Made by a program: the position numbers and the translations under genes
Source: Escherichia coli
GTDB taxonomy: Bacteria; Pseudomonadota; Gammaproteobacteria; Enterobacterales; Enterobacteriaceae
DNA length: 64,000 bases
Strand: one strand, 5' to 3'
Assembly: GCF_011045215.1 (NCBI RefSeq)
Contig: NZ_CP049201.1
Shown: positions 27,964 to 27,997 of the stretch, piece after piece
Layout of the letters: every line of letters begins with the position of its first letter
Numbering within the stretch: the stretch's first letter is position 1
The notes under the pieces: generated by a model
The model's input: the letters and a program-made list of their open reading frames with translations, nothing else
Databases searched by the model: none
Told to the model about the DNA's origin: nothing

Positions 27964-27997
27964 TGCGTATTCCGCTCGATTCGATCACGGATTGGCG
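27964..27997 (+). repeat. isolated fragment matching the terminal-repeat region of the IS21-family element
   Basis: TGCGTATTCCGCTCGATTCGATCACGGATTGGC differs by one base from the reverse complement of 21318-21350; no IS body adjacent. Confidence 0.6.

What the first reader, a model, noticed from the sequence alone, without database searches (positions are those of the whole stretch)
27964..27997. Orphan copy of the IS21-family terminal repeat with no IS body
A 33-bp stretch differs by a single base from the interior of the IS21-family right terminus at 21318-21350, yet no transposase sequence is adjacent. It is probably the scar of a second copy that was later deleted, and it could serve as a recombination substrate with the resident copy.
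Basis: seen in the sequence. Interest (0 to 1): 0.3.

Follow-up and report, generated by a model that had tools for sequence, protein, structure and literature searches.

The report
Gene-less 72-bp mini insertion sequence
The "orphan" repeat is half of a 72-bp gene-less miniature of an ISSso4-type (IS21-family) insertion sequence that keeps both ends; it is an old, widespread, probably inert insertion in an E. coli genomic island, one of a small family of such minis.

Summary
The 33-bp match is real: 27964-27996 against the reverse complement of 21313-21345, 32 of 33 bases, with no match in 100 shuffles. It is the outermost end of the resident ISSso4 (18708-21345), not its interior.

It is not an orphan. 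The adjacent 27998-28035 is an inverted copy of the IS left terminus (32 of 38). So 27964-28035 is a 72-bp two-ended mini-element, TGCG...TGCA, with outer termini facing outward and no genes.

Related islands carry a precise empty site. The element adds 76 bp, which is 72 plus a roughly 4-bp imperfect target duplication (GGGC/GGGA).

Mini-elements of the same design (64-72 bp, same 33-bp right-side breakpoint) sit at five or more other unrelated loci. One has a perfect 7-bp duplication, the length seen for two full-length ISSso4 copies. This favours mobilisation as a MITE-like unit over repeated in-situ deletions, but does not prove it. In vitro, IstA of the family member IS5376 needs two complete repeats per end, and the mini keeps only one.

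The mini is old: about 26% of complete E. coli genomes carry the filled allele. The resident ISSso4 insertion is found in none of 5,426 genomes at this site, so it is recent.

Verdict: an ordinary IS relic at this locus. I found no description of an IS21-family mini-element family.

The parts
27964..27996 (-). Right-terminus half of the mini-element: the 33 outermost bases of an ISSso4-type right end (first direct repeat plus 8-10 nt of the second). The outer terminus TGCG faces left at 27964.
   Evidence: 32 of 33 matches to the reverse complement of 21313-21345. The same 33-bp breakpoint occurs in all mini variants.
27997..27997 (.). Junction base (G) between the two halves; templated by neither ISSso4 end.
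   Evidence: Read directly. Alignment A3.
27998..28035 (-). Left-terminus half of the mini-element: 38 bases of an ISSso4-type left end. The outer terminus ...TGCA faces right at 28035.
   Evidence: 32 of 38 matches to the reverse complement of 18708-18745 (I1). The terminal TGCAAAATGG is exact.
27960..27963 (.). Left copy of the putative 4-bp target-site duplication (GGGC).
   Evidence: Empty-site alleles read ...CCG|GGGATCC. The filled allele has a net gain of 76 bp, which is 72 + 4. Other filled lineages read GGGC or GGGT.
28036..28039 (.). Right copy of the putative target-site duplication (GGGA).
   Evidence: alignment A1.
27967..28003 (+). Hairpin within the mini. GTATTCCGC pairs with GCGGAATAC (9 perfect pairs), plus inner pairs. 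The 7 nt GGAATAC that complete the stem are the only length difference from the 65-bp minis.
   Evidence: RNA fold -23.7 kcal/mol, z = -2.97. Alignment A3. No T-tract follows, so it is not terminator-like.
18708..21345 (+). Resident full-length ISSso4 (IS21 family, 2,638 bp) with intact istA (18939-20474) and istB (20491-21246). It is the likely relative of the mini's parent and a possible source of transposase in trans.
   Evidence: Up to 100% identical to annotated ISSso4 copies. Pfam and NCBIfam assign IstA and IstB.
18701..18707 (.). Left copy of the 7-bp target duplication TTCTGCC of the resident ISSso4.
   Evidence: The target is single-copy in strain 120899.
21346..21352 (.). Right copy of the 7-bp target duplication TTCTGCC of the resident ISSso4.
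27600..27776 (+). Hha/YmoA-family gene. The mini lies 187 bp downstream of its stop codon.
   Evidence: Pfam HHA, 1.5e-17. RefSeq annotation of the identical region.
28120..28316 (-). Small hypothetical gene, frameshifted here, convergent with the Hha-like gene. The mini lies 84 bp downstream of its 3' end.
   Evidence: RefSeq annotation transferred from L001. An internal stop is present in the window.

Best explanation
27964-28035 is a 72-bp non-autonomous miniature of an ISSso4-type IS21-family insertion sequence. It has the outermost 33 bp of the right end and the outermost 38 bp of the left end, joined inner side to inner side. The transposase-cleaved termini (5'-TG...CA-3') face outward, and there is no coding capacity.

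Shown: it is an insertion, not native island sequence. Related islands have the precise empty site, and the filled allele carries about 4 bp of duplicated target.

Inferred: it most likely arrived as a mini-element (MITE-like). IstA transposase and the IstB helper, supplied in trans by a full-length relative, would have cut at the terminal CA and pasted it with a staggered target cut. It was then inherited with the CP4-44-type island.

Today it is probably inert. Each end keeps only one complete IstA-binding repeat. In the most common lineage the terminal TGC has mutated to TGA.

Its only plausible present-day activities are as a weak partner end for the resident ISSso4 transposase or as a short, inefficient recombination target.

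Confidence in the anatomy (a two-ended IS-derived mini-insertion) is about 0.95. The figure below is for the stronger claim that it moved as a mini.
For: Anatomy:
- Both termini are present, adjacent and correctly oriented (I1 and I2).

Insertion:
- Three paralogous islands (RSHH22, 571, KE48) lack exactly the element plus 4 bp.

A family of minis with the same design sits at unrelated loci:
- Locus B: 65 bp between the YfjI-family and GTPase genes. The empty site in strains ST3 and O26:H11 shows a net gain of 71 bp, which is 65 + 6, with ATTACG/AGTACG flanks.
- Locus C: 65 bp on IncF plasmids of E. coli, Klebsiella, Salmonella and E. albertii.
- Locus D: a truncated copy.
- Locus E: 64 bp inside an IS3-family transposase gene with a perfect 7-bp duplication, TCATAAC. 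The reconstructed empty site is collinear with intact genes.
- Locus F: 65 bp.

Common descent:
- Every variant that keeps its centre (A, B, C, E, F) has the identical 33-bp right-side breakpoint; truncated D has lost it. B, C and F share the same GGCC junction.
- The 72-bp form differs from the 65-bp form by one 7-nt indel.

Compatibility with the parent IS:
- Full-length ISSso4 copies show duplications of 7, 7 and 5 bp, compatible with the 4-7 bp seen for the minis.
Against: - IS5376 IstA needs two complete direct repeats per end for integration in vitro, and its transpososome engages R1 and R2 (PMC10122671). The mini keeps one repeat plus 8-13 nt.
- A 64-72-bp duplex is too short to bring its own two ends into one synaptic complex by simple looping (inference).
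- Copy number is low (1-3 per genome, about six loci in all), with no sign of a burst.
- Differences among minis cluster in the 4-6-nt spacer, where full-length IS variants also differ. This could mean independent origins from different parents.
- My searches required both ends within about 80 bp, so longer internal-deletion derivatives were not sampled. This is an ascertainment bias.
- Duplications at loci A and B each carry one mismatch. Loci C and F show none.
Confidence: 0.55

Rival explanations
1. In-situ decay. A full-length ISSso4-type element inserted here, making the target duplication. It later lost its 2.5-kb interior by an internal deletion that joined the first repeat of each end. 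The other minis would be independent repeats of the same kind of deletion.
For: - It explains the target duplication and the empty sites equally well.
- It needs no transposition of a one-repeat substrate, which IS5376 IstA cannot integrate in vitro.
- The 65-bp junction has a 2-nt GC microhomology between 18740-41 and 21313-14.
- Spacer differences among minis mirror differences among full-length variants and among the internal 23-bp repeats of the left end.
- Partly deleted ISSso4-type ends do exist, for example in O157:H7.
Against: - The identical 33-bp right-side breakpoint at five unrelated loci, and the identical junction at three, would need a stereotyped deletion pathway. The two ends are inverted, not direct, repeats, so homology cannot drive it. 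I could find no such mechanism.
- No genome sampled shows a full-length copy at locus A, B or E. The sampling was not exhaustive.
Confidence: 0.35
2. One reading: a solo ('orphan') right-end repeat left after loss of the rest of a second IS copy. The neighbouring similarity to the left end would be incidental.
For: - The right-end half is much better conserved (32 of 33) than the left-end half (32 of 38).
Against: - The left-end match is significant on its own (E = 2e-5 against the window).
- It starts 1 nt after the right-end match, in the only orientation that makes a mini-IS.
- It includes the terminus-specific TGCAAAATGG.
- It is removed together with the right half in the empty-site alleles.
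- The same two-ended design recurs at other loci.
Confidence: 0.02
3. A host or island regulatory element, such as a structured 3'-UTR hairpin or a protein-binding palindrome between the convergent Hha-like gene and the small ORF. Its resemblance to IS ends would be secondary, or it was co-opted after insertion.
For: - The + strand folds into a stable hairpin (-23.7 kcal/mol, z = -2.97).
- The 7-nt difference from the 65-bp minis completes a perfect 9-bp stem.
- The element is slightly better conserved (70 of 72) than its flanks (about 92%) between two island lineages.
Against: - No Rfam family matches at E <= 1.
- There is no terminator-like T-tract and no promoter-like site in the element.
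- Many islands function without it, as the empty alleles show.
- The hairpin follows trivially from fusing two inverted repeats.
- The terminus mutates freely (TGCG to TGAG).
Confidence: 0.05
4. A relic of an IS21-type 'reactive junction': the abutted right and left ends of a tandem dimer or circle intermediate.
For: - Both ends lie side by side. IS21-family elements are known to form abutted-end junctions (own knowledge of IS21 biology).
Against: - In a reactive junction the outer termini (CA/TG) abut. Here the inner sides abut and the outer termini face the flanks.
- The element is flanked by a target duplication.
Confidence: 0.01

Closest known systems
ISSso4 (IS21 family; Shigella sonnei / E. 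coli), the resident copy at 18708-21345
   Same: The terminal sequences match: the right end at 32 of 33 and the left end at 32 of 38. The termini are 5'-TG...CA-3'. Target duplications fall in the same size range (4-7 bp for the minis, 5-7 bp for full-length copies).
   Different: The mini has no istA or istB. It keeps only the first of three (right) or five (left) 23-bp-spaced terminal repeats. It is 72 bp rather than 2,638 bp. Its left half is no closer to other sampled variants (O157 relic, 33 of 38).
Bacterial MITEs / miniature IS derivatives (for example Correia elements of Neisseria, RUP of Streptococcus pneumoniae, and the MITE entries in ISfinder; own knowledge, not tested here)
   Same: It is short and non-coding, built from the two inverted termini of an autonomous IS present in the same species. 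It is flanked by target duplications, polymorphic for presence or absence, near-palindromic and hairpin-forming.
   Different: It is very short (64-72 bp) and low in copy number (about six loci). It derives from a family whose transposase needs two repeats per end in vitro. I found no IS21-family MITE in the searchable literature.
IS21 (IS21)2 / circle 'reactive junction' of abutted ends
   Same: A right end and a left end of an IS21-family element lie directly next to each other.
   Different: The polarity is opposite. In the mini the inner sides are joined and the cleavable termini point outward.
Solo terminal inverted repeats / truncated IS ends (for example the O157:H7 ISSso4-type left-end relic, L010)
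   Same: They are IS-derived, gene-less relics in islands rich in other IS fragments.
   Different: Those keep one end only. The window element keeps both ends, with a target duplication.

Membership tests
IS21-family insertion sequence (autonomous) | Encodes the IstA transposase and the IstB AAA+ helper | tested here: not met
   No Pfam hit in the ORFs over 27780-28273. No IstA or IstB tblastn hit near the site.
IS21-family insertion sequence (autonomous) | Termini 5'-TG...CA-3' with imperfect terminal inverted repeats | tested here: met
   The element reads TGCG...TGCA and matches both ISSso4 termini.
IS21-family insertion sequence (autonomous) | At least two direct repeats (L1/L2, R1/R2; about 23-bp spacing) in each end; required by IS5376 IstA in vitro | tested here: not met
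   The mini keeps 33 and 38 bp, which is the first repeat plus 8-13 nt. The requirement is quoted from PMC10122671.
MITE / miniature non-autonomous IS derivative | Short, non-coding, bounded by the inverted termini of an autonomous element of the same host | tested here: met
   The element is 72 bp, has both ISSso4-type termini and no ORF with a family hit.
MITE / miniature non-autonomous IS derivative | Flanked by a target-site duplication of the parent's size class | tested here: inconclusive
   Locus A (window): 4 bp, GGGC/GGGA, one mismatch. Locus B: 6 bp, one mismatch. Locus E: perfect 7 bp. Loci C and F: none seen. Full-length copies: 7, 7 and 5 bp.
MITE / miniature non-autonomous IS derivative | Presence/absence polymorphism with precise empty sites | tested here: met
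   Empty alleles were found for locus A and locus B. A reconstructed empty site for locus E is collinear with intact genes.
MITE / miniature non-autonomous IS derivative | Several copies of the same unit at unrelated loci | tested here: met
   Six loci (A-F) have unrelated flanks. Those that keep their centre share the same right-side breakpoint. Copy number is low.
MITE / miniature non-autonomous IS derivative | Mobilised in trans by the parent's transposase | not testable with these tools
   This needs a transposition or in-vitro integration assay. In-vitro data for IS5376 argue against one-repeat ends.
Solo (orphan) IS terminal repeat | Only one IS terminus present at the site | tested here: not met
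   The left terminus lies 1 nt away (I1).
IS21 reactive junction (abutted ends of a tandem or circle) | Outer termini CA and TG abutted, separated by a few bp | tested here: not met
   The inner sides are joined and the outer termini face the flanks.

The most novel reading that the evidence does not exclude
The 64-72-bp elements are a true IS21-family MITE, mobilised in vivo by ISSso4-type IstA/IstB although each end carries only one complete transposase-binding repeat. That would mean one of two things. Either the two-repeat rule seen in vitro for IS5376 is not general, or the near-palindromic fusion lets the opposite arm stand in for the missing second repeat. In the mini the TCGAT core of the partner arm lies 2 bp from where the second repeat's core would be. 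As far as I could find, this would be the first MITE described for the IS21 family and among the shortest bacterial MITEs.
Probability: 0.3. Interest if true: 0.6.

Novelty: new member of a known kind. Interest (0 to 1): 0.33.

Why it matters
- At this locus the element is an old, harmless IS relic between two convergent genes. It changes nothing about the island's gene content.
- It corrects an annotation trap. A half-match to one IS end can hide a complete two-ended mini-element, and RefSeq leaves it unannotated.
- The wider family touches an open mechanistic point. It is a set of 64-72-bp, one-repeat-per-end minis at about six loci, on chromosomal islands and on IncF plasmids in several genera.
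- If these minis move, IS21-type transposases can act on much smaller ends than the structural and biochemical work suggests.
- Such minis would then be cryptic partner ends for building composite transposons with resident ISSso4 copies. On plasmids, at least one mini sits at a module breakpoint.

Tried and rejected
- Chance match: rejected by shuffles.
- Remnant transposase near the site: none found by Pfam, blastn at word size 7, or tblastn.
- Reactive-junction reading: rejected on polarity.
- Known RNA family or terminator: none.
- Other species: a pattern scan of 100,044 species-representative genomes found only one contig. It is an E. coli IncF-plasmid fragment binned into a Collinsella MAG.
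- Empty site for plasmid locus C: none. All 61 near-complete matches are filled, and distant relatives match only one flank.
- Locus B in the window: absent. The window diverges from the CFT073-type sequence about 330 bp from that site, so it offers no empty site.
- Better parent for the diverged left half: ISSso4 scores 32 of 38 and the O157 relic 33 of 38. The 97%-identical relative (L022) was not scored over these 38 nt. No clear parent emerged.
- Deterministic deletion mechanism: I considered homology between repeats, cleavage at inner repeats, and synthesis-dependent strand annealing (SDSA) after excision. None predicts the observed junction beyond a 2-nt GC microhomology.
- Literature on IS21-family MITEs or on ISSso4 minis: nothing relevant.

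Full report
**Context.** The window is an E. coli CP4-44-type genomic island next to cobUST, ldtA and tRNA-Asn. It is collinear at 95-99.7% identity with strain 120899. There are two differences. An ISSso4 insertion is present, and the Ag43 gene is missing.

**The resident IS.**
- It spans 18708-21345 (2,638 bp) and is up to 100% identical to annotated ISSso4 copies.
- istA (18939-20474) and istB (20491-21246) are intact.
- It is flanked by a perfect 7-bp duplication, TTCTGCC. That sequence is single-copy in strain 120899.
- Its ends carry the 23-bp-spaced repeats typical of the family: five on the left and three on the right.

**Checking the observation.**
- 27964-27996 matches the reverse complement of 21313-21345 at 32 of 33 positions (I2).
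- No shuffle of the window gave such a match. The local alignment scores 31, against 12.1 +/- 1.3 for shuffles.
- The partner is the outermost 33 bp of the IS, not its interior, and the orientation is inverted.

- One base further on, 27998-28035 is the reverse complement of the IS left terminus 18708-18745 (32 of 38, I1).
- This includes the terminus-specific TGCAAAATGG.
- So 27964-28035 reads, on the minus strand, as left terminus, then one base, then right terminus.
- It is a 72-bp element with both cleavable termini (TG...CA) facing outward and nothing between them.
- No transposase remnant is nearby.

**It is an insertion.**
- Paralogous islands in strains RSHH22, 571 and KE48 read ...GTATTT(G/A)CCG|GGGATCCGG....
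- The window reads ...GTATTTGTCGGGGC[72 bp]GGGATCCGG....
- The net gain is 76 bp, which is the element plus about 4 bp of duplicated target (GGGC/GGGA, one mismatch).
- The element lies between the convergent Hha-family gene (27600-27776) and a small frameshifted ORF.

**Age.**
- The 601-bp region around the element is present at 80% coverage or more in 1,429 of 5,426 complete genomes.
- The element is shared by island lineages that differ by about 8%.
- In the most common lineage in gut metagenomes the terminal TGCG has become TGAG, which indicates neutral decay.
- The junction of the resident ISSso4 with its flank is found in none of the 5,426 genomes.
- The mini therefore long predates the resident copy and is not its 'second copy'.

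**A family of minis.** Searches with the 72-bp and 65-bp sequences and a gapped pattern found the same design at unrelated loci.

| Locus | Size | Where | Flanks and target duplication |
|---|---|---|---|
| A | 72 bp | this window, between the Hha-like gene and a small ORF | net +76; GGGC/GGGA |
| B | 65 bp | between YfjI-family and GTPase genes (CFT073 and many others) | empty site in ST3 and O26:H11; net +71; ATTACG/AGTACG |
| C | 65 bp | IncF plasmids of E. coli, Klebsiella, Salmonella, E. albertii; 63 PLSDB records | always filled; the two flanks belong to different modules; no duplication |
| D | truncated | UPEC_U013 | not assessable |
| E | 64 bp | inside an IS3-family transposase gene | perfect 7-bp duplication TCATAAC; reconstructed empty site collinear with intact genes |
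| F | 65 bp | next to an IS66 element in two E. coli genomes | none seen |

- Every variant that keeps its centre (A, B, C, E, F) has exactly 33 bp of the right end; truncated D has lost that junction.
- B, C and F share the GGCC junction, which forms a TTGGCCAA palindrome.
- The window's 72-bp form differs from the 65-bp form by one 7-nt block, GGAATAC. That block completes a perfect 9-bp stem with GTATTCCGC near the terminus.

**Mechanism.**
- Shown: the element is IS-derived, two-ended, gene-less and an insertion with a target duplication.
- Inferred: how it got there.
- The identical right-side breakpoint at five loci, identical junctions at three, and a perfect parent-sized duplication at locus E are most simply explained by one ancestral mini. 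It would have been moved as a unit by IstA/IstB from a full-length relative (MITE-like).
- Against this, IS5376 IstA needs two complete repeats per end for integration, and the transpososome contacts both R1 and R2 (PMC10122671).
- The minis keep one repeat plus a fragment, and a 64-72-bp duplex cannot easily synapse its own two ends.
- My searches could only find short forms, so the narrow size range is partly an ascertainment effect.
- The rival, repeated in-situ internal deletion, avoids the substrate problem. It has no mechanism for the stereotyped breakpoint, because the ends are inverted repeats and share only a 2-nt microhomology.
- I weigh these at roughly 55 to 35.

**Present-day role.**
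- No RNA family, promoter or terminator signal was found.
- The hairpin follows from fusing inverted repeats.
- Recombination with the resident IS is unlikely to matter. Only 33 bp are shared, split 14 + 18 by the mismatch, and the orientation is inverted (inference).
- The resident, intact ISSso4 could in principle pair one of its ends with a mini end. That would make 18708-28035 a composite unit. This is speculation.

**Comparison and novelty.**
- The element works like a bacterial MITE or mini-IS. It meets the structural criteria; mobility is untested.
- It is not an IS21-family member in the autonomous sense, not a solo end, and not a reactive junction.
- I found no description of IS21-family MITEs or ISSso4 minis in the searchable literature. 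RefSeq leaves all copies unannotated.
- I rate it a new member of a known kind.
- The locus itself is ordinary. The family is a modest curiosity for transposon specialists.

Noticed in passing
window 12436-14237 (minus strand): A second, different IS21-family element with intact-looking genes: istA at 13215-14237 (340 aa) and istB at 12436-13218 (260 aa). IstB is only 26% identical to ISSso4 IstB. Its ends do not match the mini.
   Followed up: partly
window 22586-22600: Compared with the near-identical island of strain 120899, the window lacks about 2.8 kb holding the Ag43/Cah autotransporter gene (L001 4074-6890).
   Followed up: partly
window 18701-21352: This ISSso4 insertion, between the antirestriction and DUF932 genes, is found at this site in none of 5,426 complete E. 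coli genomes. It is a strain-specific, recent event with a perfect 7-bp duplication.
   Followed up: yes
window 27928 onward (about 27928-28200): Many E. coli genomes match the window perfectly up to 27927 and then switch to an unrelated sequence block (for example strain Sanji, L006). This is a second recombination breakpoint, 36 bp upstream of the mini.
   Followed up: partly
L073 (metagenome contig OGOR01012903.1), about 541-605: A 65-bp mini has the left flank of chromosomal locus B and the right flank of plasmid locus C. It is either a real recombinant across the mini or an assembly chimera through the repeat.
   Followed up: no
L007 / L016-L018 (IncF plasmids), mini at 2501-2565: At plasmid locus C the two flanks have different relatives. 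The TetR/bufferin side matches a K. aerogenes plasmid; the other side matches other plasmids. The mini therefore marks a module junction, and no target duplication is visible.
   Followed up: partly
L015 (JAIJJM010000162.1, 'Collinsella sp.' MAG), 4456-4520: This contig is identical to the E. coli IncF-plasmid locus C, so it is probably a mis-binned enterobacterial plasmid fragment in an Actinomycetota MAG.
   Followed up: partly
L010 2480-2556 (E. coli O157:H7 strain 7409): An ISSso4-type left end has fewer 23-bp repeats and runs into a degraded transposase pseudogene. It shows that the repeat array in the left end can contract.
   Followed up: no
window 18724-18836 and 21270-21345: The resident ISSso4 has five 19-bp conserved units (TCGATCA-N3-TTTGGCAT) at about 23-bp spacing in its left end but only three in its right end. 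This is more than the two per end described for IS5376.
   Followed up: partly
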